This document shows, one piece after another, positions 39,953-56,668 of a DNA stretch of 64,000 nt; positions within the stretch are counted from its first letter, which is position 1; the number at the start of each line of letters is the position of its first letter. Source of the stretch: a virus (lineage: Duplodnaviria > Caudoviricetes); IMG/VR virus record IMGVR_UViG_3300038379_000423, positions 3,429 to 67,428 of that record; one strand, given 5' to 3'. The notes under the pieces were generated by a model. That model made no database searches. It saw only the letters and a program-made list of their open reading frames with translations, and was not told the DNA's origin. The position numbers and the translations under genes were made by a program.

Positions 39953-39953
39953 A

Positions 39954-41342
39954 CTAAACCTCCCATTCACACGTTACTTGATAGTAGTGACCAGGATACA
40001 GCGCGGCTACAGGTGGTGTAGTAAATCTCGCTTGCAAGGTACCAAAGACTGGGTGTACCCATGAAAATCTTTTTAGACCTGTAAGAAGAGTCGACGTGTA
40101 GAACTGGTCAAAAATTACGTACTCTTCTTCGGTAAACTCGAAAACCACGGAGAATTTTTTCGGGCTGTTTGTGCCTCTTCTCCTTCTTTTGATCGGATAC
40201 CCTTCGAAGCCGCTGACTACGGCATTCTCGGCCATTTGATGTGCGTACTGGCCTACCAATGGCTGAGCCGGCAGGCTATCTGGCCACACAATTCCTGAAT
40301 CTCCAGAGGCTAGCAAGCTCGCCGACTGTAGTGTAATGTCGGCAGAAAGCAAAGCCTCCGAATTTATGATGGCTGCAAGTTGTGCGGCCTCAAGAGTAAG
40401 ATCTACGACTCCTACTGCGGTTCCAACCGTGATACCGGAGAGGACTGTGGCACTCTCCAAGGAGGTGCTGGCTGTGCCCTGGATCTCCACAGTTCCTGTG
40501 GAGGACACTGTGGCATTATCTGTAGTAGCGAAGAGGTTAATCGAACTCTCTCCGCTCCCTTGCGAACTGAGGGAAACGGCCCCCAAATTTGCCGAAAGTA
40601 CACCGAAGGCTGGGACTTGTGCCTCTGTCTGAAGTTGGCATCCTGCCAATGTCGCGGTAAGAGTGCCTTCGGCGCTGGCTGTACCTAAAAATTCTACGCC
40701 AAGAATTGTTCGAACGCGGTTTACTGCCGAAGATCCGGTGTACTGCTGATTTCCTGTAGATGTCGGGGTATGAGTGCCGAAGTTAGCTCGTACGCCTGAC
40801 GAGTCATTCGTAGAAGCGTGCTCGTCTTGTTCTGTGAGGGGCGAATCTAAGGTGACGCTGGAGTCTTCGTTTGAGGATGAGTGTGCCACAATGACTAAGG
40901 AGTCCGTGGAAGACTCTATATTCAGGGTGGCCGAACAAGAAGTTTGGAACTCGGCCCCACCACCGGCAGTGGACCCGGTCGGATCAGAGGCCTTAATATC
41001 GGAAATCTGCGCTAGGAAAGCAACCGCAGAGCGGACATTAGCCGACCAAGTAACGGCTACCGTCTTATTAGTCTGGTCGCCAGGATTTGCCCAGTAACAA
41101 ATGGCAACGTTCTTGCCAGGCCCCGGGTTGTAGGCCTGTACATTCGTAAAGATGAGGTCGGCGGCCACACTGTTGTAAGTAATGGCCGATACTATCGAAG
41201 AGGAACTTCCGGATACGGAGGCTGCGACTATTACTACTAGGGATCTTCCGGCAGTGTGGGAGATATTAGTTATGTTCCAACTGGAACTGCCGAGAAAACC
41301 CGACTCGGTTTTTGAACTGGACTGTAATGTCGGGCGAGCCAT
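39954..41342 (-). CDS. Distal tail (Dit/gpM-like) domain fused to an N-terminal beta domain and six 21-aa repeats (copy B)
   Basis: C-terminal WPDSLP...RRRRGT...F..FY..L..G..RF.W.HP; position upstream of gpL-like gene. Confidence 0.75.
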   Translation of the reverse strand: MARPTLQSSSKTESGFLGSSSWNITNISHTAGRSLVVIVAASVSGSSSSIVSAITYNSVAADLIFTNVQAYNPGPGKNVAICYWANPGDQTNKTVAVTWSANVRSAVAFLAQISDIKASDPTGSTAGGGAEFQTSCSATLNIESSTDSLVIVAHSSSNEDSSVTLDSPLTEQDEHASTNDSSGVRANFGTHTPTSTGNQQYTGSSAVNRVRTILGVEFLGTASAEGTLTATLAGCQLQTEAQVPAFGVLSANLGAVSLSSQGSGESSINLFATTDNATVSSTGTVEIQGTASTSLESATVLSGITVGTAVGVVDLTLEAAQLAAIINSEALLSADITLQSASLLASGDSGIVWPDSLPAQPLVGQYAHQMAENAVVSGFEGYPIKRRRRGTNSPKKFSVVFEFTEEEYVIFDQFYTSTLLTGLKRFSWVHPVFGTLQARFTTPPVAALYPGHYYQVTCEWEV

Positions 41343-41358
41343 TTCGGGTTTCTCTTAC

Positions 41359-42873
41359 TTACACAACCGAACCATCAGACACAAGTGTCGCTTCGTCCAG
41401 ATAGGTAAAGACGGACCCGATTGGCAGGGTGGGCACTGGTGTGAAGAAGGCCTCCAACTCGAGTTCTACATCGTACAACTTTCCAGATACGGCATTCACG
41501 ATTGGAGGCTGTACAAAAGAGACTGTGGGAATCTCCGAAAGTGTGGGGCGGTACTTCCAGGAGAAGCTCTTTCTTCCTGATTCAAGTGCCGCGTAGTAAA
41601 AGGTTTCGAAATCCGCTAATTGGACGTCCGTCAACCGCAGCCGGCCTTCCACCAGTTTCGGGATATTGGTCTGCCTTCTTCTCCTTAGGGCCGGCCCCCG
41701 CTCCGTAGTTGTTACAATAAGGTTGTCAGCGTGGTGCTCCCGGAAACTATCAAAGGATAGATACACCGGTAGAGTGCCTGGCCATTGAATAGTTTCCGCG
41801 CCGATTACACCAGTTGACACAAGTACGGAGTTCAGTAACGTAACGCCGGCAGAGGCCGCCGTTTCCCGGGTACCTTGTGCTGATAAAACCGCATCAGCTA
41901 GTGTAATAAAAGAATCGGCTAGTGAGACTAGTCCGGTTGTCGCCGCAAGAGTAGCGTCTTGTAACGAAACCTGAACAACCCCTGTCCCGGGTACGGCGCC
42001 TGTTGCCGAGGCTGTAACATCTCCAAGTGTAGGAGTGGCTGTAGCAGATATTTCGGCGAGACTGGAGGCGTACGCCTCGAACCCTACTGCGCCGAGAGTT
42101 ACGTCCAGAGCGGCGCTAACTTCTATGCTGGCCGTCGCACTCAGAGTTGCAGGGGCCAAATTTACGGAGGACGAGCCATCCACTGCTGAAGTCGGTAAAA
42201 ACTCCACTACTAGAAGTGCCGCGTAGTTTGCTACCGCGGCGGAGCAGACATAGTTTTGGTTTCCAGTTGCACTAGGCACATGTGAGCCGAATTTAGCGGC
42301 TGGCCCAAGCGCGTCGGTTGTGGTAGGAATCTCCAGATACTGCAGCGACGTTATAGGGGAATTAAGCGTCAGGTCCGTAACGTCCGCGTTCTCATGACAG
42401 AACCAAACGATTACCAAACTATTTGCTTGCTGTATATTCGCCGTAGCAGTGGCTGATGTAACTGATACGGAAGCCGGCGCCGCCGGCGCCCGTGCAATAG
42501 CCCCGATTTTGGTCCCGGAGGGATGTGCCGAGGTCTCGATATCAAGAGCGAGGGCCGTGCGAATGTTTTTGGAACTATCCGGACCAGACCAAGTAATTGT
42601 CACAGTCTTGTTAGTCTGGGCTCCAGGATTTGCCCAGTAACAGACAGCGACTGTCTTACTCGGGTACCCAACGTTAATGTGCGTGATAATATTATCGGCA
42701 GCTACTCCATTATAAGTGGCCGCCGAAACGGTGAGATCCGCCGGGCTCTGGTAGGCAGTTGCCGCAACCAGCAGTACCAGGGATCTCCCATCGGTATGAT
42801 TACGAGTGAACGACCACGTTTTGGAATTTAGCCAACCCGATAGCCGCTGTCCCCAGGAATGGAGTATCGGCAC
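41359..42873 (-). CDS. Dit/gpM-like domain fused to an N-terminal beta domain and six 21-aa repeats (copy A)
   Basis: WPGTLP...GPALRRRRQT...FETFY...L.SG...F.W; paralogous to copy B (shared CYWANPG, 20 identical bp). Confidence 0.75.
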   Translation of the reverse strand: MPILHSWGQRLSGWLNSKTWSFTRNHTDGRSLVLLVAATAYQSPADLTVSAATYNGVAADNIITHINVGYPSKTVAVCYWANPGAQTNKTVTITWSGPDSSKNIRTALALDIETSAHPSGTKIGAIARAPAAPASVSVTSATATANIQQANSLVIVWFCHENADVTDLTLNSPITSLQYLEIPTTTDALGPAAKFGSHVPSATGNQNYVCSAAVANYAALLVVEFLPTSAVDGSSSVNLAPATLSATASIEVSAALDVTLGAVGFEAYASSLAEISATATPTLGDVTASATGAVPGTGVVQVSLQDATLAATTGLVSLADSFITLADAVLSAQGTRETAASAGVTLLNSVLVSTGVIGAETIQWPGTLPVYLSFDSFREHHADNLIVTTTERGPALRRRRQTNIPKLVEGRLRLTDVQLADFETFYYAALESGRKSFSWKYRPTLSEIPTVSFVQPPIVNAVSGKLYDVELELEAFFTPVPTLPIGSVFTYLDEATLVSDGSVV

Positions 42874-42884
42874 GGAAGTCGCCC

Positions 42885-43361
42885 CTAAGCCGGCGGATCA
42901 ATAAGATCAATCAGAATCGTTAGCCGGGCCTTAATGGCAGTGCAAGACGCTGGCGCCGTCACTACGGCTCGTACCATCCTCCCAGTCCCATCATTACTAA
43001 CGACTTGGTTTTGGGCGAATCTTCCAGCCCCCATCGGCCAGTTTGCCTCGCACCAAAGGATTGCATCATCAATTGCGGAGGATAGGCTGCCCCAAGCGGC
43101 CACTACATCGTATGCTGGATCCCCGGCATCCTCTTGGGCGATCGTAATAATGTTTGGATGCCCCGAAACCTGGGCTATTTTGGCTTTGAGGGCCCCAAGA
43201 TTTTCAAACCACGCTTGGGACAGTTCTACCAAATCAACCGTAAGTGAGTCGCACTGCCCACTTAGGTGCACCATCTGCCGTCGGAAGCTTGCAACATTAC
43301 GCTTTAAGTCCTGGTAAAGCTGTCTAGGACTCGGCGTAGAGTCCGATGTTCTGACGCCCAT
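42885..43361 (-). CDS. Hypothetical helical protein
   Basis: 158 aa in the tail operon. Confidence 0.65.
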   Translation of the reverse strand: MGVRTSDSTPSPRQLYQDLKRNVASFRRQMVHLSGQCDSLTVDLVELSQAWFENLGALKAKIAQVSGHPNIITIAQEDAGDPAYDVVAAWGSLSSAIDDAILWCEANWPMGAGRFAQNQVVSNDGTGRMVRAVVTAPASCTAIKARLTILIDLIDPPA

Positions 43362-43389
43362 GTAACTAGTCCCCTTTTCTTAGCAGGAA

Positions 43390-43797
43390 TTAGGCGTTAC
43401 CGTCGGTCAGCGTGAATGCCGTAATTGTAATCTGCTGGCCAGCAGCAATAGTTACGTTATCAAGGGTCATGTCCCCGCCACCGCCCGTAGCTGTAATCGT
43501 GCCCTGGGCATGGCAGGTAGTGCCATCACTGGCGTACACCCGGAAGTGGGCAGCCGTACCAGCGGCATCTGCTGAAGCATCCTGCCACGTTCCGGACTTT
43601 GCCTTGCTCCCGCTCGATGCCGCTGCCAACCAGTCAGACGGCAAGGAAAGGGTGGACAGAACTGTACCGCTATCCGCAGCGGCACAGTTAGCGGGAGCGG
43701 AGCCCGACCGGATTTTTAGAACGGCAGAAACCCCAACCGTAGTTTCGATAGAATCCAATCGGGCATTTCTCACCGCGACGGAAAATTGCAGCGTCAT
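43390..43797 (-). CDS. Small beta-rich virion-associated protein
   Basis: RNARLD..., LKIRSG..PA, GTAAHFR, GGGDMTLDN..IA.GQ pattern familiar from phage tail regions; A/G/T rich. Confidence 0.7.
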   Translation of the reverse strand: MTLQFSVAVRNARLDSIETTVGVSAVLKIRSGSAPANCAAADSGTVLSTLSLPSDWLAAASSGSKAKSGTWQDASADAAGTAAHFRVYASDGTTCHAQGTITATGGGGDMTLDNVTIAAGQQITITAFTLTDGNA

Positions 43798-43821
43798 TTG
43801 CTTCTACTCCGGTTTAGAAAG

Positions 43822-44028
43822 TTAGTCCGACTTTTCTGCCGCGGCTTTGTCGGCAGCTCGCAGCTCATCAGCATGGGCGGCCACGGCGGCCATAAAGGCA
43901 GCGACTCGCCGGTGCTGTTCCTGGCGCTCTTGTTCGGTTAGCGGCTCCCCCCGTTGATTCAGTTCGATAACCCGCGCGGCAGATGTTAGAAGGGGGACGA
44001 GCCCCGCAATGATAAGTTCAATACCCAC
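43822..44028 (-). CDS. Small protein with hydrophobic N-terminus
   Basis: 68 aa, coupled to the lipoprotein gene. Confidence 0.55.
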   Translation of the reverse strand: MGIELIIAGLVPLLTSAARVIELNQRGEPLTEQERQEQHRRVAAFMAAVAAHADELRAADKAAAEKSD

Positions 44029-44359
44029 CGTACGATCTCCCAGTTACGCCGCTAGCGGCTGTTAAAAATTCCAGCAGTTTTACACGGGCGATTTCTGCAG
44101 CGTTTTCCGTCAAGGGCGCTTCCCGGCAAGTACTGACTGCGGCATCATAAAGGTCGTCTAATTCCGCAAAGGTTTCCGCAGTGATTTTTTGGGCCACACG
44201 CAGGTTAATCACCTGAACCATCGCCTCACCTGTAAAAGCGCAAGCTTGATCGAACCTGGAGCGAGCAGAAACCGGTGTGCCACCAGTTGGTGACATGGCA
44301 CAACCGAGTAGCAGAAAGACTACACTGCCACTGAGTAGACATCTTACCACTTCGCGCAC
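44018..44359 (-). CDS. Lipoprotein (possible spanin-like component)
   Basis: Lipobox LLLG-C; GGAGG RBS. Confidence 0.65.
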   Translation of the reverse strand: MREVVRCLLSGSVVFLLLGCAMSPTGGTPVSARSRFDQACAFTGEAMVQVINLRVAQKITAETFAELDDLYDAAVSTCREAPLTENAAEIARVKLLEFLTAASGVTGRSYGGY

Positions 44360-44377
44360 CTCCTATTGAGTCCACAC

Positions 44378-46810
44378 CTAACGCTTACGAAGAGCCCCGT
44401 AGTTGTTAAGCGATTGCCGGGATTTACCACCCGGGTCACTTAGTCTAGAGGCCATCATTGAGTCGATCATGTCTGGCAGATCGATCGTAACGTTCCCCGA
44501 AGTATCCTGGGAGACCTTAGTACTCTCAGGAACCTTGTTTATCACGATAGTAGGAGCCTGTGAGTTTTGAGCGCCTTTAGAAATAACTCTCTCACCTCTC
44601 TGTAAGATGGCTGGATACTCATCCTCGGAGAGTAACCCCGAATGAAGTCGGGGCGCCCCAGCGAATAAGCTGGCCGGGACAAATCTTTCGCGGGGATGAT
44701 CGTATCCAACAAGCCCGCCGAAGTGATACACTGGGGCCCCCACTCCAGCACCGGATGCATACGCAGACGAAGCCGGTGTTGCTACTCCGGCACCAGCGGC
44801 TCCAACAGGGGCGGTGGCAAACAAACCCCCCAGGCCCCGGATTGCTGCATCCACACCAATTCGAGCCAGTGCCTGGAACGCCGATGAGATAATCACCCTA
44901 GTGAAGGCTTGAATTACCTGCTCGGCAGTGACTTTAGCCCCTAGGGCAATATCCGTAAAGACATCGGCGAACGTGTCCCCAATTCTTTGAGCGATACCTT
45001 CAGCCGAGGCAACCAATGACTGAAATATCGGATCCATGTCCTTCGTGGCTTGGCTCCACTTCTCGTTAATCAAATCTATACCCAGAGCCGTTTCTTGCGC
45101 CGAAAGGCGGGCCTCCTTCGCTTGCTCTTTCCAGGCAGCAATATCGCGGTCTGCTCTCAACCGGTTTGCTTCCTCGATCTCCCCGGCGGCTTGCAAGGAG
45201 TCGGCTTTCATCAGTTGGAGAGCTTCCTGTGCCTCACGAAGGTTCTCCGCTCTTAGTTCTTTTATTTTCTTGAACTCTTGTTCGCCTTCGAATTGCATTT
45301 CTGGGGTGTATTCGTACCGGCGATCAAAGACAGAAGACTCGACCGACTTAATCCCGAAAGGCAACTCCATCGCTTCCCGATGGCGGCGCTCCGCTTCCCG
45401 ACGCCGCTCATCGGCCGCGCGCTTTTGCTCTGAAGCGGCTGCGTTAGCTTCGCGCTCGATTTCCCTTTCTCTTCTGTCTATCATCGCCCAGTAACTGTCG
45501 TCGTAGGGCCTTCCTTCGGGCTTGTAGCCGGCAAGAGGATCCTTCGCAAAAGGAGCCGAAAGAACCCCGAGCTCCCCTGCGTAACCAGATTCTTTTCCGT
45601 AGGCCTCGTACTCCGTACTGAGTCGATCTATCAACTTTCTGTCTTGACGGGCTGTAACTCCTGCAGTAAAGTACCCCCGCAATATCTCGGCAGGGGCATT
45701 CAGAAGTTCCCGTACATCGGGAGGAATTTGCCGGAGAAGGATTTCCCCGAGGGACGTGCCGCTTTCTAGTTCCTCGATTGCCATCGAGACAGCGCGGATA
45801 GAATTAGCGACGGATTGTACGCTCCCCGCAAATCCTTTAGAAGCCCCGATCTGAGAATCAAAAGTCCCTATTAAGTCTATCAGTGAATTCCCCAGTGCGG
45901 ATAAGGACCTGGATACGGTAATTTGCATCCTTTCGAATTCACCACGCAGTGTCCCGGACTGCGTCAGGATCGCCTCAAAGAACTGTCTAGATGTAATCTC
46001 CCCGGATATGATAGAATTCCTCAACTTAGCCACGGAGCCGTCCATACCTTCTATACCGTCTGCCGCCGCTTTGGCCAAGCGCGGCATACCTTCCAGCATG
46101 GAGTTGAATTCTTCGGCCCGGACTATGCCGGAACCCATTGCCTGTGACAACTGGAGCAATGCACCCTGGGCTTGGAGCGCGGATGTGCCACTAACTGTCA
46201 AAGATAAGGACACAGCCTGCACGAACTCTAAGAGTTCGGATTGTGAAGCTCCTAGGCTTCTAGCGGCCAAACCGGTTCTCGTATACAGTTGGCCCAGCGC
46301 TTCGATACCGGCGCCAGTTTCTATCGAAGCGGTTGCCAAAGCTTGGTATACGGACTGTAATTCCTGGCTGGACTCCGTAACGACCTTTAACCTGTTCTGC
46401 AAGATCGTGTAAGCGTCCGCTGCTCTGAGTAGCATCGCTGGAGTTTTGCTGATTGCCTCTATAGTTGTGGATATTCCAAAACCGGCCAACATACCACCGG
46501 CAATTGTTTTCATCATGCGCAAGCTATTGGCAGAGAGCCTGGCGCTATCAACCACTTGCCGGTGGGAGCTGATAATGTCTTTTGTGGTTTGTGACGTCGC
46601 ATTGGCCACGTGCCGGGTATTCTGTATTGCAGCATCGGCTATCTGCGCCGTAGCCGCGGTCGCCTGACCTGCCGTCTGTGCAGTAGAAGTAGAAAATTGC
46701 CGGCCAGAATCGGCAATCCTCTTCATCGCCTGCTCAAATTCGCGCGCGCCGGCTTGCGCACCACGGGCGTCAATTGCTAGACTTAATGTGGGGCCTACAA
46801 TAGTAGTCAT
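44378..46810 (-). CDS. Tape measure protein
   Basis: 810 aa Ala-rich; tape-measure domain ADAYT..QNRL...QLSQA.GSG..RAEEFNSMLE; C-terminal LHSG...E.PAILQRGERV. Confidence 0.95.
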   Translation of the reverse strand: MTTIVGPTLSLAIDARGAQAGAREFEQAMKRIADSGRQFSTSTAQTAGQATAATAQIADAAIQNTRHVANATSQTTKDIISSHRQVVDSARLSANSLRMMKTIAGGMLAGFGISTTIEAISKTPAMLLRAADAYTILQNRLKVVTESSQELQSVYQALATASIETGAGIEALGQLYTRTGLAARSLGASQSELLEFVQAVSLSLTVSGTSALQAQGALLQLSQAMGSGIVRAEEFNSMLEGMPRLAKAAADGIEGMDGSVAKLRNSIISGEITSRQFFEAILTQSGTLRGEFERMQITVSRSLSALGNSLIDLIGTFDSQIGASKGFAGSVQSVANSIRAVSMAIEELESGTSLGEILLRQIPPDVRELLNAPAEILRGYFTAGVTARQDRKLIDRLSTEYEAYGKESGYAGELGVLSAPFAKDPLAGYKPEGRPYDDSYWAMIDRREREIEREANAAASEQKRAADERRREAERRHREAMELPFGIKSVESSVFDRRYEYTPEMQFEGEQEFKKIKELRAENLREAQEALQLMKADSLQAAGEIEEANRLRADRDIAAWKEQAKEARLSAQETALGIDLINEKWSQATKDMDPIFQSLVASAEGIAQRIGDTFADVFTDIALGAKVTAEQVIQAFTRVIISSAFQALARIGVDAAIRGLGGLFATAPVGAAGAGVATPASSAYASGAGVGAPVYHFGGLVGYDHPRERFVPASLFAGAPRLHSGLLSEDEYPAILQRGERVISKGAQNSQAPTIVINKVPESTKVSQDTSGNVTIDLPDMIDSMMASRLSDPGGKSRQSLNNYGALRKR

Positions 46811-47145: not shown

Positions 47146-47525
47146 TTTTTTATCAGGTCGTCCTGGTAGCCATCGGGTTGTGACGCTTGTACGATAACCC
47201 AGTCGACGAACGGCCGGTTGTCTTCGTTATCCAGCACTCTACGGAGCATCTCAGTAGAGAATTCGATGGGATTGCCATCTACGTCAATAACGCCCCGCCA
47301 GCCGACGATTACAGACTCCGCCGTTATTCTTCGTGAAACTTCCTCGTAAGCAACGGGGTCCTTGTTGAGCCCCATTATCAAGTGGCGCCTCTGAATGACC
47401 TGCGCGCGATGTGCCTTTGATAGGATCGACCGGAGTTGAACCGCAAATCCAAACGGCGTGTCAACCCAAATTCCCTCATCGGCGGTCTTCGAGTTAAAGG
47501 AGGCCCCTTTATTTCCGAGTTTCAT
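47142..47525 (-). CDS. Tail assembly chaperone (gpG-like)
   Basis: DEGIWV, IVGWRGV.D.DG..IEFS; upstream of the tape measure gene. Confidence 0.85.
   Translation of the reverse strand: MKLGNKGASFNSKTADEGIWVDTPFGFAVQLRSILSKAHRAQVIQRRHLIMGLNKDPVAYEEVSRRITAESVIVGWRGVIDVDGNPIEFSTEMLRRVLDNEDNRPFVDWVIVQASQPDGYQDDLIKN
47145..47151 (-). promoter_or_regulatory. -1 ribosomal frameshift slippery heptamer A AAA AAC
   Basis: ATA AAA AAC TGA at the end of the chaperone gene; -1 frame continues KLTDRLTWVHEW... Confidence 0.85.
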
Positions 47526-47998
47526 GATGTAGCACTCTCCGAGCTTTCGCTCATAGCATCACCAAATTGCAGCATATTCGTAATCCTTTTAGTACGCCTA
47601 GGGCCTACATCTTTAGCCCATTTGCTATTCCGGAAGCCAGCCGCGGCGGCCTCATAATCCCCGCGTTGTAGGGCCGGCAACGCATTACGGAAACTCAGGA
47701 GGCCGCGGGACGAGGATCCGATACCCATGTTAAAGGCGAGCTCGACTAACGCCCGCTGCCGGACTACATCCAGGTTAGCCCACCATGGAAGATGAGTATT
47801 CAAGCCCTCAACCGCTCTGAGAATGTCATTCTTCTTGAGGTATTCGGCCTCATCGCGGTTAATCCCTACCGCATCCAAATTCCTACCGTAACCGATCGTT
47901 AGCTTATTTTTCGTATCACGATACGGGCGGGACCGGAAACCCTCTGCCTCGGATAGATCCTCCAGTAGTCGAACGTCCTTGGTCCAATCGGCAGTCAT
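47522..47998 (-). CDS. Endolysin (T4 lysozyme/GH24-like)
   Basis: EGFR..PYRDT...LTIGYGRNL (E-x8-D-x5-T catalytic pattern), ELAFNMG, SKWA..VG.RR. Confidence 0.9.
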   Translation of the reverse strand: MTADWTKDVRLLEDLSEAEGFRSRPYRDTKNKLTIGYGRNLDAVGINRDEAEYLKKNDILRAVEGLNTHLPWWANLDVVRQRALVELAFNMGIGSSSRGLLSFRNALPALQRGDYEAAAAGFRNSKWAKDVGPRRTKRITNMLQFGDAMSESSESATS

Positions 47999-48003
47999 AA
48001 GGA

Positions 48004-48237
48004 TTACTCCTGTGGCTCGGTATTAGCTGGGGCCACATAAGTCCCGATCAGGCCCCCGAGAGCGGTGATCGTGGAAGCAAGTACCATTGCGAAGTTCTGG
48101 CTACTCCAGATATCCGCCCAACTCGGCACAACCTTAATCAGAACCTCAATTAGGAACGCCGCGAACGGCACCGAGCTAACTCCACCGATAACGCCACCGG
48201 CGGCCGAACCCTTCAACTTGCTGTAATTGGTAGCCAT
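48004..48237 (-). CDS. Holin-like two-TM protein
   Basis: Two hydrophobic helices; immediately upstream of the endolysin. Confidence 0.6.
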   Translation of the reverse strand: MATNYSKLKGSAAGGVIGGVSSVPFAAFLIEVLIKVVPSWADIWSSQNFAMVLASTITALGGLIGTYVAPANTEPQE

Positions 48238-48254
48238 TAGATCTCACTCCACTT

Positions 48255-48551
48255 TTAAGCTGGTACACGGTCGCTTACATCTACCACCACGGTAAATACG
48301 GACGACGAACCATCAGCAAAAGTAACTCTGTTTTCCACGTAATGCTTTGTGTTGTCAGTGCCCCCAGTAATGAGTACAGAGGCAACGCCATTCTGGATAG
48401 TGTCCCCGGATAGTGTTACGGTGCCCGAGGCCACCACCCAAGTGGAGATCGACACAGTCGTCCCTAAATCAGCAAGATAGCCTGACCAATCGACAAGGAT
48501 GCGGGAGATAGCCCAAGGATGTTTTTTGAATATCCCGAAATCTGCAGCCAT
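48255..48551 (-). CDS. Small Ig-like virion protein
   Basis: F.K.P......DW..YL...STW...V.ITGG...NRVT..DG pattern; paralogous to the N-terminus of 55838-56668. Confidence 0.65.
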   Translation of the reverse strand: MAADFGIFKKHPWAISRILVDWSGYLADLGTTVSISTWVVASGTVTLSGDTIQNGVASVLITGGTDNTKHYVENRVTFADGSSSVFTVVVDVSDRVPA

Positions 48552-48583
48552 TCTAAAACATCCTTATCTTGACAAATTACTGG

Positions 48584-48820
48584 TTACGGCCAAAGGTCCT
48601 TCTTTGTGACGGTAACCAAGGGTGTTCCTTCGTAGAGGGATACGTACACTCGCACGCCCTCCATCTCCAGGACAAGAGTGTCTGCACAACCCTTTGACTC
48701 CGAAGCGCCTACCTGCAGCCTTACTCCTCGCCGGCGCCATCTACCGGCGTCGGCATCGGCCATAACCAGCACGCCATGAATAGTGTCCAGCTGCCTTTCG
48801 TCTTCCGGAAGTAGATACAC
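48584..48820 (-). CDS. Hypothetical protein
   Basis: 78 aa in the operon. Confidence 0.55.
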   Translation of the reverse strand: MYLLPEDERQLDTIHGVLVMADADAGRWRRRGVRLQVGASESKGCADTLVLEMEGVRVYVSLYEGTPLVTVTKKDLWP

Positions 48821-48823
48821 AGC

Positions 48824-49357
48824 TTAAATCTCGTCCCAGGCAAAAGTAATCGTCTCCGCCGTTTTTAGGCCCTGACTCGCCGTCGGCTCCACTTCGACGA
48901 CTAGTACCAGATAGTCGCCAATATCCTTCGGCAATCCAGTGCTATCGAACGGGCCTGTATTAATTGCGTCGAGGTCCGCCGGAGAGCCAGAAGTCTTCGC
49001 AAAGAAGTCGGTCATGCCGACCGCGTCGTGCTGCGGAGGATCGTTGGACTCAGTAGGGACCGCCGGCGTGCTGTAGGTGCCATCCAGAGCGTGCCACAAC
49101 TTAATTCCGGTGCCGTAACCATTGCTTCCATCCGTATAGGCACGCAGGTTGCTTATCTGCGTGAACGTGCCGGATGCTATATGAAGTCTCAACCATTTCT
49201 CAAAACTGTACTCTTGCCCGGACCCAGGAACAATGAGCGGGTTATTAAGGTCGACGGTAGAATTGTCCGCATCTTTGAAACGCACCGTACCGGAAGTCTT
49301 GTCGGTAGCAGTTTGGCCAGCGCCATTCTTTTCCCGTATCTGTACTGTAGCCGCCAT
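48824..49357 (-). CDS. Beta-rich virion-associated protein
   Basis: 177 aa; YSFEKWLRL, ISNLRAY, C-terminal ETITFAWDEI. Confidence 0.65.
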   Translation of the reverse strand: MAATVQIREKNGAGQTATDKTSGTVRFKDADNSTVDLNNPLIVPGSGQEYSFEKWLRLHIASGTFTQISNLRAYTDGSNGYGTGIKLWHALDGTYSTPAVPTESNDPPQHDAVGMTDFFAKTSGSPADLDAINTGPFDSTGLPKDIGDYLVLVVEVEPTASQGLKTAETITFAWDEI

Positions 49358-49366
49358 AACATCACC

Positions 49367-51874
49367 TCATCGTTTAGTAAACCGTGGCCCCATTCGTCCG
49401 ATAGAAAATAATGGACCCCTGTAAGTAACAGTGAAACGCCCTCCGACTTGTTCTCCAGAAAACGACGAATCCGTGTAAGTGGTTGCAAATCTGTCTACTT
49501 CGGGCACGAAGACCTTATGTTGCGAGATCTCCCCGCTAAACACTAGGAGATCTACTGTAGTCGCGCGTTGTATAAATGCCAGGATAGCGAAATCGTTACT
49601 GACAGTTACTAGGGAAGAAAGGGCCACCGCCAATTCAAGGCCGCATGTCAACAACTCGATCTTGTAAAGCACCAGATCACAAAGGGCATATTGAAACTTA
49701 CCCAACTGCACTGCTATCTCAGACAAAAATGAGGTTGTCACTTCGTCTAATACCGCCAAGTCTCCAGCAACCGGGGTTGACGTAGTAATCGCCAGTGCGG
49801 TATCAACCCCAGCCTGCGCCTGCCGCGGCACTTGAACAGTCAGATCAGCAAAGGCTGAGGAGACCAGCGTAGCCTGCGCAGCGAGGTCCGCCACAGCTAG
49901 TACAGCAAGCTGTCCGGTGTAGACGTAGATATCGAGGAAGGCCGAGGCCCCCGTAATTTTCTGCACCGGTAGATCCAACTGTGCTGGAACCGACTGAAAA
50001 GTCGAAATCGCCAAGGAGGTCTGTACCAAATCAAGAATGGTTTTCCTTGCTGGAAGATCGAAACCGACCAACCCTGATCTTTGAGCTTGTATAGCTAGGT
50101 CCGAACTTAGTTGCTCGAGCCTAGGCAGAGCGAGTGCTAAATCGAGGGAGATTTGCTCATCGTTCAATATCGAAATCGCTAGATCTACCGTAGCCACGAC
50201 CGCTAAGCCGCCGCCTACTAATAGGTCAGCAACCAGCGAAGCACCTAAACTAGCCTGAACTGCGAGCTGTCCTGAAACTGCTATGGAGGACAGTATCTGA
50301 ACAGCCAGCTCAACTTGCCCGGCGATGGCTCTGGCCGCCTGAATTGCCGGTGCAGCGTTTGTAACGGCCTCTATTGTCTTCCTGGATACCAAGTCAGCCG
50401 TTAACGAAACATTGAAACCAGCGACCGCCATAAAATCGAGTAAGCAAGTACGGGTCTCAAGAAATGCCGAAGCTAGATCCGCCCCGGTTTGGGAAGATAC
50501 CAAGCGCTGCACGGCAACATTCAAAGCACTACTTGCACTGACAAGAGCCTGCGCCGTCAAATCAGCCGAAACGTTGAACTCCTGCCTCTTCAGAAGGGCC
50601 AGGTCTGTAGAAAGCGTGGACACGCCGGCCAACGCTGCCACCAGATCTGCCGCGACTTGCTGTGCCCGTTGTGTAACGAGCGCTATGTCTACCCCGGTCA
50701 CCAATCCTGTCGAGATATAGGCAGCCAGCTCCGCCAAGCAACTGTTAGCTCTTGCGAACAACACCGGCAAATCCGCGCTAGTCTGTGCGAGCAGCGTTTG
50801 CCGAACGGCGAGGTCGGATTGTGTGGCGGCGGAGAGGACCTTCTGAGACAATAGATCGAGGTCCGATAGTGCTAAAAACACCTTGGCTAGAACACTGTCT
50901 CCGGCAGTCGTGTTCTGAAGGTTTTTCTGTGACGCCACATCTCCTGACAAATTGGCGGCAATTTGCTTCTGCACCGCCGGGTTAGCCCCCGTGGCGCTAA
51001 GAATTTCTCTTTGAATTGCCAATTCAGCGGCGGTACTCTGCGCAACTGCAAGCGCTACTGCCAAATCATTACTCAAACTCCCGGTAAGTGATTTTTGAGC
51101 GGCTAGGTCGACATTAGTACTGGTTGTGATAGACTTCTGAACGGCTACGGCAGCCGAAACCGTCTGTGTAAAAGTTTGGGCTGTTGCTGTTGATACTAGA
51201 GCAAAACCTATCGATGTCCAGTGCGCCGATGTCGTCTGTGTGAACGACTGGCTACCTCCGGAGATCGTGACGTCGGTTGCCAAAAGCGCGACTTGGACAT
51301 TAAGTGTGCCGTCGCCCCCAACGGTTGTATTGGAATTCGACACCTCGATCCAGTCCCCGTTGCTCTCGCCGGTGAAGGAGCCGAACGTCGCATCCGACGA
51401 CGCAAATCCTGTTAGACACACCGCAAGCCGCCCTGCCCCGTCCGGATTAACGGAAGGCGGCGAAACCGTAGTCGTTGTTCCGGATGCGGAGTTGACTCCC
51501 TCGATATACGTCCCAGTGAATGCCTGGTTGTCGGCCGGCCGGAAGATGTGGATCTGCGCAGCGAATAGGTCAGCTGTCGTTCCCCCGCTGGCCGTAACCG
51601 ACAGCGTACCACTCTCCGAGCCGGTTGCAATCTTGGTGTAGATTTGCTGTCGCGCGTTGTTGCTGCCACCGTACGGATTGCCGGAAAATGATGCCTCGGA
51701 GAATCCAGTTGGCGTTGTCGTGTCACCGTTGTTATTGGTGTTCCGGGTCAGGCATTGAAGGACCAGAAGATCGCCGGCCAGGATCCCGAACGGGTACGAC
51801 ACTGAGTGCGAAGTCGGCAGTGTCGCGTTAGCGTAGAGCGTGCCAGAACTGACGTACTCAGGATTAGCTGACAT
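49367..51874 (-). CDS. Large virion-associated protein: N-terminal beta domain plus about 39 copies of a 14-aa repeat
   Basis: AGDLLVL N-terminal domain; xxxxxxxDLAVQKx periodicity from about 51180 to 49540. Confidence 0.8.
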   Translation of the reverse strand: MSANPEYVSSGTLYANATLPTSHSVSYPFGILAGDLLVLQCLTRNTNNNGDTTTPTGFSEASFSGNPYGGSNNARQQIYTKIATGSESGTLSVTASGGTTADLFAAQIHIFRPADNQAFTGTYIEGVNSASGTTTTVSPPSVNPDGAGRLAVCLTGFASSDATFGSFTGESNGDWIEVSNSNTTVGGDGTLNVQVALLATDVTISGGSQSFTQTTSAHWTSIGFALVSTATAQTFTQTVSAAVAVQKSITTSTNVDLAAQKSLTGSLSNDLAVALAVAQSTAAELAIQREILSATGANPAVQKQIAANLSGDVASQKNLQNTTAGDSVLAKVFLALSDLDLLSQKVLSAATQSDLAVRQTLLAQTSADLPVLFARANSCLAELAAYISTGLVTGVDIALVTQRAQQVAADLVAALAGVSTLSTDLALLKRQEFNVSADLTAQALVSASSALNVAVQRLVSSQTGADLASAFLETRTCLLDFMAVAGFNVSLTADLVSRKTIEAVTNAAPAIQAARAIAGQVELAVQILSSIAVSGQLAVQASLGASLVADLLVGGGLAVVATVDLAISILNDEQISLDLALALPRLEQLSSDLAIQAQRSGLVGFDLPARKTILDLVQTSLAISTFQSVPAQLDLPVQKITGASAFLDIYVYTGQLAVLAVADLAAQATLVSSAFADLTVQVPRQAQAGVDTALAITTSTPVAGDLAVLDEVTTSFLSEIAVQLGKFQYALCDLVLYKIELLTCGLELAVALSSLVTVSNDFAILAFIQRATTVDLLVFSGEISQHKVFVPEVDRFATTYTDSSFSGEQVGGRFTVTYRGPLFSIGRMGPRFTKR

Positions 51875-52224
51875 ACATTATCCCCGATAAAGTCGTCTGC
51901 CGCCGTAGTAGTCGGGCTTGCACTTCCGAGAACACAGAATCCGACCCGTCCGGATGTAATAGTCGTGTCAACAAAATCAAGGTCTGTGTCTTCGACGCCA
52001 TCTATATAAACACGAATCTGACTTCCGACAATCGCGATACTCAGCGGCTGTCCGTCCGATATAACCTCAGGACGTGACAACGTCGGGTATGATAGCGATC
52101 CAGATACATTTTTTACGGTTGGTACCAGTCCGCCTGATCCGACATACGCACCATAATACGTGGCCGTATCGGAATTGATTAGGCGGACGGCCGGCCCGAG
52201 CTATCCCTCCCCGAGGACGGACAT
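51875..52224 (-). pseudogene. Degenerate ConA-like beta-sandwich gene remnant
   Basis: ATG 52224, in-frame TAG 52203-52201, then GPAVRL..YY...IRVYIDG...TSGRVGF...DDF; lacks a proper stop and runs out of frame into the next gene. Confidence 0.55.
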
Positions 52225-52230
52225 CGGGAC

Positions 52231-52389
52231 CTACGCCTGCTGATCGTCGTCCGGGGCATCCGTCGCCCACCGGTACCCACACTCGCCGGTTGTCTTTGCG
52301 ACCTCTGCTTCGTTCTCGGGGTCAGCAATCCTGCGGCGTAACTTCCGGATGAGATCCCATAATGGGATCTCCCGCAAATTAGTTACCAT
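52231..52389 (-). CDS. Hypothetical protein (52 aa)
   Basis: ATG overlaps the tail tube stop (TGATG). Confidence 0.45.
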   Translation of the reverse strand: MVTNLREIPLWDLIRKLRRRIADPENEAEVAKTTGECGYRWATDAPDDDQQA

Positions 52390-53855: not shown

Positions 53856-53867
53856 GGCAACTTTCCT

Positions 53868-54724: not shown

Positions 54725-54728
54725 TCAG

Positions 54729-54986
54729 TTACCGCCACTGATACAACGGAGTATCGGTGCGCTTCACACGAAATCTACGGAGGCTGCCCTCCGGAAGCTC
54801 TACTTCTGCAATGATAGTATCGCACTCAAAAGGATTGGCACCACCTGGGTACGACTTTTTGCCGCCAAGCTTGCTCCGCCTCTTTTTCTCAGCGGCCACA
54901 ACAGCGCGGTATCGCTCGTGCGAGATATACCACTGGCGGCCGAACTGGCTGTTATGGATGATGTAGTACCGCATGGCAAGCCTCAT
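54729..54986 (-). CDS. Hypothetical basic protein
   Basis: ATG 2 nt after the head-closure stop; fills the operon. Confidence 0.45.
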   Translation of the reverse strand: MRLAMRYYIIHNSQFGRQWYISHERYRAVVAAEKKRRSKLGGKKSYPGGANPFECDTIIAEVELPEGSLRRFRVKRTDTPLYQWR

Positions 54987-54987
54987 C

Positions 54988-55341
54988 CTATTTGATGTGA
55001 AGTTCCCACAACACCGTAACGGCTCCAGGAGAGTGCCGGATACACTTGATGATCGTGCGTGTATCATCCCCAATAACAACCCTATCCCCCACTACAGGGT
55101 CGAAAGCAAGGCCTTCAGGGCTTGCATACACAACCTTGTTAACGGTTGTAGTCTCCTTTAGGAGCGTAGTAGGCTCGTCTATCACTACGTAGGCAAACTG
55201 ACTATTAACGGTTTGAAAATTCTCTCCGCTGACAGCGTCAAACCCCGATGTTGTAACTCTTTGAATAGCTACTGTCGTTCCGAATTCTTCGATTAGGGGT
55301 GTTACTACGGAGTTCAGTATCCCGTTGTAATCAAAAGCCAT
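54988..55341 (-). CDS. Head closure (stopper) protein
   Basis: FDY......LI.EFG..V...R.....D...G; P.VGD; position. Confidence 0.8.
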   Translation of the reverse strand: MAFDYNGILNSVVTPLIEEFGTTVAIQRVTTSGFDAVSGENFQTVNSQFAYVVIDEPTTLLKETTTVNKVVYASPEGLAFDPVVGDRVVIGDDTRTIIKCIRHSPGAVTVLWELHIK

Positions 55342-55371
55342 GCTCGTAATACCTACGATAAGTGCGGGTGA

Positions 55372-55836
55372 TTAGAAACCAGAGAATAGCCGAAGGGCCA
55401 ACTTCGGAACGGCAAGTGTAACGACTTCCCCTCCGGAAAAAGCGTCGAACTCAATAGCGGCTTTCACTGCATCCGGTGCTCTAGCCCCATTAAATAATGC
55501 GCCGTAGGCGTACTGGGAACCGCTCCCAATCGCAATGTAGGGTGCAGAAATTGCATAGGCAACCCCATGGGGGGTATCAAGGACCTTTACTTCACCGTCG
55601 GGGCTGATAATAAGAGAATCGAAACAGCCGCTATCCCTTTCCGGTAAATCTAACCGGGTAGTCTCCCCTCTCAGATATTCTAGCACTCTTTCCTGAAATC
55701 CGAGCGGGCCGGAATACCCCCATAAGTGGCCGGATTCAAACTTTCCGATTTTTGAGGAATAGCCTACTTTTGTGGTACTGACCGTTACGAGACTGTCCGA
55801 AGCAAGGATCCCGTCGCGGTAGACAATAACAGTCAT
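55372..55836 (-). CDS. Ntn-hydrolase (HslV/proteasome beta-like) protein
   Basis: N-terminal MT.I.Y.DG..ASDS (Thr nucleophile), K33-like SK, AIGSG..YA.GA, D..SGG. Confidence 0.8.
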   Translation of the reverse strand: MTVIVYRDGILASDSLVTVSTTKVGYSSKIGKFESGHLWGYSGPLGFQERVLEYLRGETTRLDLPERDSGCFDSLIISPDGEVKVLDTPHGVAYAISAPYIAIGSGSQYAYGALFNGARAPDAVKAAIEFDAFSGGEVVTLAVPKLALRLFSGF

Positions 55837-55837
55837 A

Positions 55838-56668
55838 TTACACCCTTATTACACTGACGTCCCCGTAACCACGAAGTACCGATTTGAGCAACGCGTCTAC
55901 CTCCACGAATCGGATTTCCACGCTACCAGCCCCGCCAGCCGCGTACTCCACTTGATCCACAATTGGCCCAACCTCGCGGCGGCGGGACTTAACTACAGTT
56001 TCGGTAGACTCTCTATAAAGAGGAGCCGTGAGAGCTATGTGCGACAAGGCGCAGGTAGCCCGCACGACGGCGCTTGGTACACCAATAAGCTGCCGGCCCT
56101 CGGCATCGTAGGCGCCCTGTCGCGGCCAAGCCAAAGCTTGCGTTTCCACCACTAGGTATCCAACAAACTTTTTGGAGAAGCGCGAATCAATGTACTCAGT
56201 AGCACGCACTATCGCAGCCTTACGCGCACTAGCACTAGAATCCCGCCAAGCTGCATCATCCCTGCTAAGCCAGTACGAATCGGCCGTGGCGAGGGAGCAG
56301 TAACTATTTGCCGTGGATAACCCCGAGCCGTCCTCCACAACGAAGACGCCCCCACCATCGAGGACCAATAACTCGATGGTGTCTTGTAGAGCGCGGCCTC
56401 CAGCTGTAGTGACGTTTAAGGTAATGTAGATACTCTTCCCGGCTAACTGTGTCTTAGCCGTAGCCGGGGTCGTGGCTTTCAACCACAACGTAGACGTCTT
56501 GGTAGTGTTTGATTGTTGGTGAATTGCAATTGTGGCCGCTAAGGCATCTGCCGGCAGTACGAACTGTGACGTCGCAAGAGTATCCGATACCGGATCGAGT
56601 TCTGTGGACCAATCCCGCGTGTAACTGACAGTAGTATCAGGATCAAATGGTGGGGACCAAGTTGTCAT
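55838..56668 (-). CDS. Head-tail adaptor (DnaT-like family) with N-terminal Ig-like domain
   Basis: VVEDGSGL..ANSY.S...AD.Y, QAL.WPR, VGPI..EY; extra N-terminal domain of about 105 aa. Confidence 0.85.
   Translation of the reverse strand: MTTWSPPFDPDTTVSYTRDWSTELDPVSDTLATSQFVLPADALAATIAIHQQSNTTKTSTLWLKATTPATAKTQLAGKSIYITLNVTTAGGRALQDTIELLVLDGGGVFVVEDGSGLSTANSYCSLATADSYWLSRDDAAWRDSSASARKAAIVRATEYIDSRFSKKFVGYLVVETQALAWPRQGAYDAEGRQLIGVPSAVVRATCALSHIALTAPLYRESTETVVKSRRREVGPIVDQVEYAAGGAGSVEIRFVEVDALLKSVLRGYGDVSVIRV

What the first reader, a model, noticed from the sequence alone, without database searches (positions are those of the whole stretch)
39954..56668. Possible modular appendage system: repeat 'ruler' stalks plus small beta subunits anchored to neck and baseplate
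Seen: two similar cassettes. One is the 835-aa protein (about 39 x 14-aa repeats) with 177-aa, 78-aa and 98-aa Ig-like genes; the other is the 135-aa and 158-aa genes with the two Dit fusions (6 x 21-aa repeats). All three long proteins have an N-terminal beta domain then an alternating-hydrophobic repeat stalk, and anchor-like domains are fused to core hub proteins (Dit; head-tail adaptor). Inference: each repeat donates beta strands to one copy of the neighbouring small protein, so repeat number sets filament length, like a tape measure for side or neck filaments. I know no described system of this form, but could not search.
Basis: inference. Interest (0 to 1): 0.75.

Follow-up and report, generated by a model that had tools for sequence, protein, structure and literature searches.

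The report
Two rope-and-bead phage fibre cassettes
An uncultured long-tailed phage carries two gene sets for "chain-like" fibres, in which a repeat-bearing rope protein is coated by many copies of a small beta protein: one set matches a fibre type solved by cryo-EM in 2023-2026 but is fused here to the tail-tip ring protein, and the other looks like an undescribed sister type.

Summary
The 835-aa protein holds 39 in-register 14-aa repeats. The 504-aa and 462-aa proteins are paralogues (37% identity), each with six 21-aa repeats and a C-terminal lambda gpM/Dit-like domain. The head-tail adaptor carries an N-terminal Gp77-type Ig domain, and the 98-aa protein is also Gp77-type.

It is essentially the "chain-like fibre" of podophages GP4, VP1 and A1002 and the Bas63 whiskers: dimers of a ~140-aa protein dock by beta-sheet augmentation on a rope protein.

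- **Cassette A.** The 135-aa protein is a homologue of A1002 fibre subunit gp40 (PDB 44NX). In 52 of 80 related viral loci, such a gene lies near a 21-aa-repeat protein, often followed by a Gp77 gene. Cassette A is therefore a GP4/A1002-type fibre whose rope is fused to the distal tail protein of a siphovirus (confidence ~0.8).
- **Cassette B.** This set (835 + 177 + 78 + 98 aa) has the same logic, with a 14-aa repeat and an unrelated conserved subunit. 42 of 80 loci with a 177-aa homologue carry 14-aa repeats, against 1 of 80 loci with a 135-aa homologue. I read it as a probable, undescribed sister class (~0.5).

Binding could not be tested: no multimer modelling was available. Other first readers in this scan noted 21-aa cassettes on other DNA.

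The parts
55838..56668 (-). p276: N-terminal Gp77-type Ig 'collar' domain (res 9-100) fused to head-tail adaptor Ad1 (res 109-274)
   Evidence: Pfam PF23148 E 1.8e-7 and DnaT_2/Ad1 E 7.7e-32. phrog_477 E 8.8e-33. The N-domain also hits the 94-aa Gp77 genes of loci L065 and L084.
51170..51874 (-). p835 residues 1-235: cap domain ('domain X'), probably a ConA/LamG-like beta-sandwich
   Evidence: 467 library proteins match at E<=1e-3, almost all through this domain. Structural neighbours are LamG-bearing clusters, TM 0.75-0.80. It is homologous to the N-domains of 21-aa ropes that sit next to p135 homologues: hhalign prob 96.7%, E 4e-10.
49514..51151 (-). p835 residues 242-787: 39 x 14-aa repeats (D-L-A-V-Q type), candidate rope docking sites
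   Evidence: The same (S/L)-L-D-A-A-V-Q 14-mer occurs in proteins next to p177 homologues.
49370..49513 (-). p835 residues 788-835: non-repeat C-terminal tail with three R-F-x motifs, candidate anchor
   Evidence: Sequence. Similar R-F-A-R-V tails occur in ropes of L019 and L022 only, 2 of 93 ropes. This is weak.
48824..49357 (-). p177: conserved small beta-sandwich protein, candidate bead subunit of the 14-aa rope
   Evidence: 1051 homologues, the 120 best listed at 60-75% identity. AF2 pLDDT 94.7. 42 of 80 loci with a homologue carry a 14/28-aa repeat ORF.
48584..48820 (-). p78: small partner gene of p177, role unknown
   Evidence: A p78-like ORF starts within about 16 nt of the p177-homologue stop in most of the 29 loci that phmmer finds. 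An iterated search finds more but drifts.
48255..48551 (-). p98: stand-alone Gp77-type fibre-tail adaptor (Ig-like collar protein)
   Evidence: Pfam PF23148 E 7.9e-14. Gp77-like ORFs lie 150-590 nt after the p177 homologue in 13 loci.
43390..43797 (-). p135: chain-like-fibre bead subunit, homologue of A1002 gp40 / KPP25 ORF006
   Evidence: PDB 44nx_B E 4e-5, full length. 31% identity in the family alignment. phrog_3758 E 1.9e-34. 578 IMG/VR loci; the 80 kept are 67-80% identical.
42885..43361 (-). p158: unknown protein between the bead gene and the rope genes
   Evidence: No Pfam, PHROG or PDB hit. No similarity to the p135 family or to the A1002 gp41 homologue.
42184..42873 (-). p504 residues 1-230: N-terminal globular cap domain, fold untested
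   Evidence: Conserved in p462. Nearest Atlas clusters are viral 190-220-aa hypothetical proteins. No significant link to domain X or to rope caps.
41797..42183 (-). p504 residues 231-359: six 21-aa repeats, rope docking sites
   Evidence: tblastn hits the repeat regions of ropes in L018 and L078.
41428..41796 (-). p504 residues 360-482: lambda gpM/Dit-like distal tail domain (anchor)
   Evidence: phrog_384 E 5.4e-13. Matches Rhodovulum phage P1 gp48, the gene next to its TMP.
39954..41342 (-). p462: paralogous Dit-rope (cap res 1-224, six 21-aa repeats res ~225-350, gpM-like res 351-461)
44378..46810 (-). Context: tape measure protein, which fixes the Dit position of p504 and p462
   Evidence: Pfam TMP_3 E 2.7e-51.
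35047..39970 (-). Context: gpL-like minor tail protein (39482-39970), NlpC/P60 gpK-like (39036-39482), gpJ-like central fibre (35047-39039)
   Evidence: phrog_396. Pfam NLPC_P60, FNIII-A_GpJ and Phage-tail_3.

Best explanation
The window is part of an uncultured siphovirus, an IMG/VR record estimated 69% complete. It encodes two rope-templated 'chain-like' fibres.

**Cassette A (p135, p158, p504, p462).** p504 and p462 are rope proteins. Their C-terminal lambda-gpM-like domain builds the hexameric distal-tail ring under the tube, either as a mixed ring or as two stacked rings. Their six 21-aa repeats run outward as an extended strand-rich rope, and a globular N-terminal domain caps the end. 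By homology with A1002 gp40 on gp39, dimers of p135 dock on successive repeats by beta-sheet augmentation. That gives up to about six dimers per rope and 6-12 short beaded side fibres at the tail tip, probably for reversible binding to host surface glycans.

**Cassette B (p835, p177, p78, p98, plus the Gp77 domain on adaptor p276).** I infer three things:
- p177, perhaps together with p78, beads the 14-aa repeats.
- The tail of p835 locks into a Gp77-type Ig collar, either p98 or the N-domain of the 12-fold adaptor p276. That would place long beaded fibres at the neck, as in GP4 and Bas63.
- Repeat number sets fibre length.

**What is shown and what is inferred.** Shown: the repeats, the homologies, the gene order and the co-occurrence. 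Inferred: docking, stoichiometry, attachment sites and function.
For: - p135 is a full-length homologue of the solved bead subunit. PDB 44nx_B scores E 4e-5. That chain is A1002 gp40, 100% identical over the 70 residues tested to KPP25 ORF006. The two share invariant motif residues.
- The solved fibre has 11 dimers augmenting the beta-sheet of about 268 aa of rope, with a distal Ig-like cap and a C-terminal anchor in a hexameric ring (PMC13730344).
- The gene next to GP4 gp80 (gp79, which I take to be the rope) has ~20-aa periodicity, and gp77 lies two genes further on.
- Period and subunit pair specifically. 52 of 80 p135-type loci carry a 21-type repeat ORF against 3 of 80 p177-type loci. 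42 of 80 p177-type loci carry a 14-type repeat against 1 of 80 p135-type loci. Fisher p = 1e-17 and 8e-15.
- A cassette of p135 homologue, 21-aa rope and Gp77 gene was confirmed by Pfam in L084 and L022.
- The p835 cap is homologous to those rope caps (L022 alone).
- 14-aa repeat proteins next to p177 homologues have a LamG cap (L127, E 4e-22) and the same DAAVQ motif.
- p177-p78-Gp77 synteny recurs.
- Gp77 collars carrying ropes and whisker dimers at the neck are known from Bas63 (PMC12609058).
- The distal tail protein of lambda-like tips is hexameric (PMC11945409).
Against: - No complex could be modelled and no virion data exist, so docking is untested in this phage.
- p177 shows no sequence or fold similarity to the GP4/A1002 bead.
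- The repeats of p504 and p462 are not detectably homologous to the A1002 gp39 dock, whose sites are degenerate and not periodic in sequence.
- The cap of p504 and p462 is not linked to known rope caps.
- The co-occurrence loci are partly related to each other, so the Fisher p-values overstate independence.
- Only about half of the p177 loci show a 14-aa repeat gene, though many of those loci are truncated.
- The attachment site of p835 is a guess.
Confidence: 0.65

Rival explanations
1. The 14-aa repeats of p835 fold on their own as a homotrimeric beta-helix or beta-spiral shaft, like a classical tail or neck fibre with a lectin head. On this reading p177, p78 and p98 are separate virion or assembly proteins that merely travel with it.
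For: - The composition (Ala, Leu, Val, Ser, Thr and Gln rich, few charges) and the alternating hydrophobic pattern fit fibrous beta shafts.
- p177 is not related to the known bead.
- AF2 models p177 as a complete, confident monomer.
Against: - p835 has the cap-repeat-tail build of ropes, and its cap is homologous to the caps of ropes that sit beside p135 and Gp77 genes.
- The 14-aa period pairs tightly and specifically with the p177 family across varied gene orders.
- Both p177 and the repeat motif are strongly conserved, as expected of binding partners.
Confidence: 0.2
2. p504 and p462 are simply 'evolved Dit' proteins with carbohydrate-binding arms. The 21-aa repeats are a flexible linker. 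p135 is an independent small virion protein or a fibre chaperone that does not coat them.
For: - Dit proteins with added binding modules are well known in lactic-acid-bacteria siphophages (established knowledge).
- The repeats in p504 and p462 are few and degenerate.
- No homology to the A1002 gp39 dock was found.
Against: - p135 is homologous to a bead subunit that was solved while bound to such a rope.
- p135 genes sit next to 21-aa repeat proteins in 52 of 80 loci.
- The p504 and p462 repeats hit the repeat regions of ropes in L018 and L078 by tblastn.
Confidence: 0.12
3. The 14-aa repeat region is an alpha-helical coiled coil (14 = two heptads), that is, a fibritin-like whisker.
For: - Single-sequence AF2 drew helices through the region.
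- The region is rich in Ala, Leu and Gln.
Against: - That model has pLDDT 35 and is uninformative.
- Hydrophobic positions 12, 14, 2 and 4 alternate in a beta pattern around an invariant Asp, not at a/d spacing. Charged residues are scarce.
Confidence: 0.05

Closest known systems
Chain-like fibre of P. aeruginosa podophage A1002: nozzle-rope gp39 with gp40/gp41 dimers (PLoS Biol 2026, PMC13730344; PDB 44NX)
   Same: - The bead subunit is homologous: p135 to gp40.
- The rope is the N-terminal part of a protein whose C-terminal part builds a hexameric tail ring.
- A distal beta-sandwich cap ends the rope.
- There is one dimer per ~21-24 aa of rope, docked by beta-sheet augmentation.
   Different: - Here the ring domain is a siphovirus lambda-gpM-like distal tail protein, not a podovirus nozzle fragment.
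- There are two paralogous ropes, not one.
- The repeats are regular 21-mers, six per rope rather than 11 sites.
- No gp41-like second bead was found, since p158 is unrelated.
Fiber-1 complex of Ralstonia podophage GP4: gp80 dimers, separate rope, gp77 fibre-tail adaptor (J Mol Biol 2023; PDB 8JOU; Pfam PF23148)
   Same: - Gp77-type Ig adaptor genes are present (p98 and the p276 N-domain).
- The cassette order bead-rope-adaptor is seen in many related loci.
- The GP4 protein I take to be the rope, gp79, has ~20-aa periodicity.
   Different: - In the window the Gp77 gene sits in the 14-aa/p177 cassette, not with p135.
- One Gp77 domain is fused to the Ad1 head-tail adaptor.
- p177 is unrelated to gp80.
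Collar-whisker complex of myophage Bas63 and Sf14 (Sci Adv 2025, PMC12609058)
   Same: An Ig-like collar at the neck carries a rope extension that binds whisker dimers. That gives a precedent for neck-mounted rope fibres and for rope and collar being fused or split.
   Different: - The Bas63 rope binds only two dimers and is an extension of the collar protein.
- Here the candidate rope has 39 repeats and is a separate 835-aa protein.
- Here the collar domain is fused to the adaptor.
Bead-chain neck fibre of Anabaena myophage A-1(L): gp82, about 14 gp81 trimers, gp80 (PMC10966104)
   Same: It is a long beaded neck fibre with a distal carbohydrate-binding module, encoded as a small separate operon.
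   Different: Its beads are trimers joined head to tail, with no templating rope. No homology was seen.
Donor-strand-complemented pilins (FimG, PapA, CfaB; also TasA and CanA)
   Same: These are the nearest structural neighbours of the p177 model: FimG Z 6.4, rmsd 3.4 A over 117 aa. They are subunits completed by a strand from a partner, the same principle as rope docking.
   Different: The scores are weak (Z<8). There is no sequence similarity, and p177 is modelled as a complete fold. This is a resemblance only.

Membership tests
Chain-like (rope + bead dimer) phage fibre, GP4/A1002 type: cassette A | Small (~140-170 aa) bead subunit of the gp40/gp80 family | tested here: met
   p135 against PDB 44nx_B (A1002 gp40): E 4e-5 over the full length. 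31% identity to KPP25 ORF006 in alignment A2. The family profile also hits 9rkv_A, 'Structural protein', 141 aa, E 0.0035.
Chain-like (rope + bead dimer) phage fibre, GP4/A1002 type: cassette A | Rope protein with tandem docking sites of ~20-24 aa, encoded beside the bead gene | tested here: met
   Six 21-aa repeats in each of p504 and p462. 52 of 80 p135-type loci carry a 21-type repeat ORF. GP4 gp79, next to the bead gene, has ~20-aa periodicity.
Chain-like (rope + bead dimer) phage fibre, GP4/A1002 type: cassette A | Bead dimers form an augmented beta-sheet with each rope site | not testable with these tools
Chain-like (rope + bead dimer) phage fibre, GP4/A1002 type: cassette A | Rope anchored to a symmetric tail or neck ring, by fusion or through a Gp77 collar | tested here: met
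   The C-terminal gpM/Dit-like domain matches phrog_384 at E 5e-13 and 7e-13. The genes lie between the TMP and the gpL-like gene.
Chain-like (rope + bead dimer) phage fibre, GP4/A1002 type: cassette A | Distal beta-sandwich cap on the rope | tested here: inconclusive
   The N-domain of p504 and p462 is conserved between the paralogues. It has no significant link to rope caps or to domain X, and no fold model was made.
Chain-like fibre, GP4/A1002 type: cassette B (p835/p177) | Bead subunit related to gp40/gp80 in sequence or fold | tested here: inconclusive
   hhalign of p177 against the p135 family gives E 0.072. PDB sequence and profile searches are empty. Fold searches list pilins at Z<=6.4 and no 8JOU chain.
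Chain-like fibre, GP4/A1002 type: cassette B (p835/p177) | Rope architecture: cap, tandem short repeats, tail | tested here: met
There are 39 x 14-aa repeats. Several proteins sharing this cap carry repeats of period 14-25 aa.
Chain-like fibre, GP4/A1002 type: cassette B (p835/p177) | Conserved small protein genetically coupled to the repeat protein | tested here: met
   42 of 80 p177-type loci carry a 14/28-aa repeat ORF, against 1 of 80 p135-type loci.
Pfam PF23148 Gp77 (GP4 fibre-tail adaptor, Ig-like collar) | Match above Pfam gathering score | tested here: met
   p98: 52.4 bits. p276 N-domain: 32.0 bits. The cut-off is 27.
Lambda gpM-like distal tail protein (Dit) | Homology to the small protein encoded directly after the TMP, and the same gene position | tested here: met
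   tblastn of p504 residues 364-474 to Rhodovulum phage P1 gp48: 33.6% identity, E 2e-4. That gene lies next to the TMP. The window order is TMP..., p504, p462, gpL-like, gpK-like, gpJ-like.

The most novel reading that the evidence does not exclude
The p177 / p78 / LamG-capped 14-aa-repeat cassette is a second, structurally distinct class of rope-templated virion fibre. It is widespread in uncultured phages: over 1000 p177 homologues were found, and none in a cultured bacteriophage. In this reading each 14-aa (or 28-aa) repeat donates a strand to a pilin-like beta-sandwich subunit, which would be a viral counterpart of donor-strand complementation. The ropes are mounted interchangeably on Gp77 collars, neck proteins or Dit rings, and the 39 repeats here would give one of the longest such fibres.
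Probability: 0.35. Interest if true: 0.8.

Novelty: new variant of a known kind. Interest (0 to 1): 0.62.

Why it matters
- **Wider range for a new fibre type.** Chain-like fibres were first seen in 2023 and are known from a handful of podophages and, as short whiskers, from Felixounavirus myophages. This locus would extend them to a siphovirus. The rope is fused to the distal tail protein, a new way to build "evolved Dit" receptor arms.
- **A common, mobile module.** The survey shows the bead-rope-Gp77 cassette is very common: 578 IMG/VR loci carry the p135 family, and the 80 best kept are 67-80% identical.
- **A possible second class.** A separate bead/rope pair (p177 with 14-aa repeats) would mean rope templating is a general design principle for phage adhesion fibres. 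Repeat number would then serve as a simple evolutionary dial for fibre length.
- **Annotation.** Two large families of "hypothetical" virion proteins gain a working annotation.

Tried and rejected
- **p835 fold.** Single-sequence AF2 of p835 gave pLDDT 35 and is unusable, so the coiled-coil reading it suggested was dropped in favour of the beta pattern.
- **Relatives of p835.** None were found in cultured phages, in IMG/VR by pattern scan or in the word-indexed protein search. Only the exhaustive search found cap-domain relatives.
- **Relatives of p504 and p462.** None were found, apart from the database's own 352-aa version of p504.
- **p158 as a gp41-like second bead.** No similarity: BLASTP E 9.8, hhalign E 0.24.
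- **p177 as a distant Fiber-1 homologue.** Not supported.
- **p504 cap equal to domain X.** Not supported.
- **Sequence periodicity in the A1002/KPP25 rope.** Absent, so the regular 21-mers cannot be aligned to the solved dock.
- **A shared R-F-x-x-V C-terminal anchor motif in ropes.** Found in only 2 of 93 ropes, so it is not general.
- **LamG reading of the broken ORFs upstream of p835.** No Pfam support.
- **Iterated HMM for p78.** It drifted onto overlapping frames, so only the phmmer count is used.

Full report
**Setting.** The window is bases 3429-67428 of a 67.4-kb IMG/VR virus record that CheckV rates 69% complete. All genes of interest lie on the minus strand in one late operon. Family scans give a lambda-like siphovirus layout, in this order:
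- capsid (Gp13-like);
- head-tail adaptor Ad1 (p276), an HslV-like peptidase, head closure Hc1, Neck1, tail terminator;
- tail tube (488 aa, Phage_tube_2);
- p835, p177, p78, p98;
- holin, lysozyme, tail assembly chaperones;
- tape measure (810 aa), two small ORFs;
- p135, p158, p504, p462;
- gpL-like minor tail protein, NlpC/P60 (gpK-like), gpJ-like central fibre (1330 aa).

- p835 has 39 units of 14 aa in a single register (residues 242-787). Asp is nearly invariant at position 1, and hydrophobic residues sit at positions 12, 14, 2 and 4, which is a beta-type alternation. Lag-14 autocorrelation has z=10.5 against shuffles.
- p504 and p462 are paralogues over their full length (37% identity, E 8e-71). 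Each has six 21-aa units (z 3.5 and 5.0).
- There is no DNA-level tandem repeat, so these are old, diverged protein repeats.
- The last ~110-120 residues of p504 and p462 match phrog_384. They also match the 118-aa gene that follows the tape measure gene in Rhodovulum phage P1, the gpM/Dit position.
- p276 is a Gp77-type Ig domain fused to Ad1, and p98 is a stand-alone Gp77 domain.

**The key link.** p135 matches one solved chain, PDB 44nx_B (E 4e-5, full length).
- A 70-residue stretch of that chain is 100% identical to ORF006 of Pseudomonas phage KPP25. The PLoS Biology 2026 paper on the KPP25-like podophage A1002 identifies it as fibre subunit gp40 (PMC13730344).
- In A1002, the hexameric "nozzle-rope" protein gp39 sends out a ~300-A rope. 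Eleven dimers of gp40 and gp41 sit on it, each forming an augmented beta-sheet with the rope. An Ig-like domain caps the rope, and the C-terminal part of gp39 is built into the nozzle ring.
- The same principle was first seen in Ralstonia phage GP4: gp80 dimers, a separate rope protein, and the gp77 fibre-tail adaptor that gave Pfam PF23148 its name. It also appears in VP1.
- In the myophage Bas63, an Ig-like collar at the neck carries a rope extension with two whisker dimers (PMC12609058).
The statement that no such system is known is wrong.

**Cassette A is a member of that kind.** Beyond the p135 homology, I surveyed 80 IMG/VR loci that encode p135 homologues. The scan found 578 such loci, and the 80 kept are 67-80% identical to p135.
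- 52 of the 80 carry an ORF with a 19-23-aa period, usually just downstream. Only 1 carries a 14-aa-type repeat.
- Where checked, the order is bead, then rope (cap domain, n x 21 aa, tail), then a 91-94-aa Gp77-family gene (L084 and L022: Pfam E 3e-27 and 1e-22).
- In GP4 itself the protein encoded next to gp80 (gp79, 325 aa, which I take to be the rope) has ~20-aa periodicity, and gp77 lies two genes on.
- A1002's 11 dimers over about 268 rope residues give 21-24 aa per dimer, the period seen here.

In the window the rope is not free. It is fused to a gpM-like distal tail domain, a direct analogue of A1002's rope-nozzle fusion but in a siphovirus. Distal tail proteins of lambda-like tips are hexamers (PMC11945409). 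The two paralogues should therefore give a mixed ring or two rings, hence 6-12 ropes, each able to hold up to six p135 dimers.

Three points remain open:
- p158 has no detectable relative and is not a gp41-like bead.
- The cap of p504 and p462 could not be tied to known rope caps.
- No relatives of these Dit-ropes were found in phage, IMG/VR or metagenome collections.

**Cassette B is the new part.**
- *The cap domain.* The N-terminal 235 residues of p835 form a mobile domain. 467 library proteins match p835 at E<=1e-3, almost all through this domain. It occurs alone or inside larger proteins, and several of those carry short tandem repeats of period 14, 18, 20, 21, 22 or 25 aa.
- *Its fold.* The Atlas model of this domain has LamG/ConA-type structural neighbours at TM 0.75-0.80.
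- *Its homology.* It is homologous to the cap domains of the 21-aa ropes that sit between p135 and Gp77 genes: hhalign prob 96.7%, E 4e-10, and L022 alone gives E 5e-8. p835 is thus a rope by architecture and partly by descent, with a different repeat.
- *The p177 family.* Its neighbour p177 belongs to a large, tightly conserved family: 1051 proteins, the 120 best listed at 60-75% identity. The only hit in the phage collection was an uncultured Methanosarcinales virus, and only over the N-terminal 44%.
- *Co-occurrence.* In 80 IMG/VR loci with p177 homologues, 42 carry a 14- or 28-aa-period ORF and only 3 a 21-type one. Against the p135 loci this pairing gives Fisher p of 8e-15 and 1e-17. These are overstated, because the loci are not independent.
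- *The repeat proteins.* They share the (S/L)-L-D-A-A-V-Q motif with p835 and have LamG caps (L127: Laminin_G_3, E 4e-22). One may end in a head-tail-attachment-like domain, though below the Pfam cut-off. Repeat counts vary widely, from about 13 upward, with 39 in the window. The position of the repeat gene relative to p177 also varies, which argues against mere synteny.
- *Partner genes.* A p78-like ORF follows p177 homologues almost without a gap in at least 29 loci. A Gp77-like ORF follows in 13.
- *The p177 model.* AF2 gives p177 a confident beta-sandwich (pLDDT 94.7). It has no strong structural relative. The best, weak neighbours are donor-strand-complemented pilins (FimG Z 6.4, PapA 6.3, then TasA, CanA and CFA/I). 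No GP4 chain appears.

I read cassette B as a sister class of rope-and-bead fibre (about 0.5). Its mounting on a Gp77 collar (p98 or the adaptor-fused domain of p276) is inferred from the GP4 and Bas63 precedents.

**Function.** By analogy with what the GP4, Bas63 and A1002 authors propose, these would be flexible, multivalent adhesion fibres that bind surface glycans reversibly. The lectin-like caps fit that. None of this is tested here.

**Limits.**
- No multimer modelling was available.
- The fold of p135 and of the p504 cap was not modelled.

Earlier first-reader notes of this scan had flagged small-protein plus 21-aa-repeat cassettes in other genomes. They agree with the survey but are not independent evidence.

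**Verdict.** The feature is real. The locus is a new variant of it: Dit-fused ropes in a siphovirus, a collar fused to the adaptor, and a probable second bead/rope class.

Noticed in passing
window 51877-52389 (- strand): The 0.5 kb between the tube gene and p835 holds three overlapping partial ORFs in different frames. One has a beta-sandwich-like motif (I-R-V-Y-I-D-G ... S-G-R-V-G-F) and runs 42 codons past the p835 start. A GGGG run sits at the junction. This may be a frameshifted gene or a homopolymer sequencing error. Pfam gives no hit.
   Followed up: partly
window 47522-48237 (- strand): A holin-like 77-aa membrane protein and a phage lysozyme (Pfam E 3.9e-13) lie inside the tail module, between the p835 cassette and the tail assembly chaperone genes. 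That is an unusual place for lysis genes.
   Followed up: no
window 55372-55836 (- strand): An HslV-family peptidase-like gene (phrog_1040, E 1.7e-29) sits between the head-tail adaptor and the head closure gene.
   Followed up: no
window 44018-44359 (- strand): The 113-aa ORF just after the tape measure gene has a lipoprotein-like signal (L-L-L-G-C). It may be a superinfection-exclusion-type lipoprotein inside the tail operon.
   Followed up: no
window 58632-59030 (- strand): A 132-aa protein with RTX calcium-binding nonapeptide repeats (Pfam E 1.1e-9) lies among the head-proximal small genes.
   Followed up: no
loci L008-L087 (p135 homologues): The p135 family is unusually conserved for a fibre component. 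The 80 best of 578 IMG/VR loci are 67-80% identical to it, with different backbones around the gene, and it also occurs in Pseudanabaena, Microcystis and Caulobacter phages. It behaves as a mobile module, so it is a poor host marker.
   Followed up: partly
locus L090 11046-12803: A 586-aa LamG-capped protein with 14-aa repeats ends in a region that weakly matches Pfam Phage_attach, the lambda FII-like head-tail joining domain (E 5e-4, below cut-off). This hints that ropes can also be fused to neck proteins.
   Followed up: no
window 41359-42873 and 49367-51874: Public gene calls differ from the ORFs used here. The protein database holds p504 only as a 352-aa form, and holds a 203-aa C-terminal piece of p835. 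The N-terminal part of p504 is conserved in p462, so the long ORF is the real one.
   Followed up: partly
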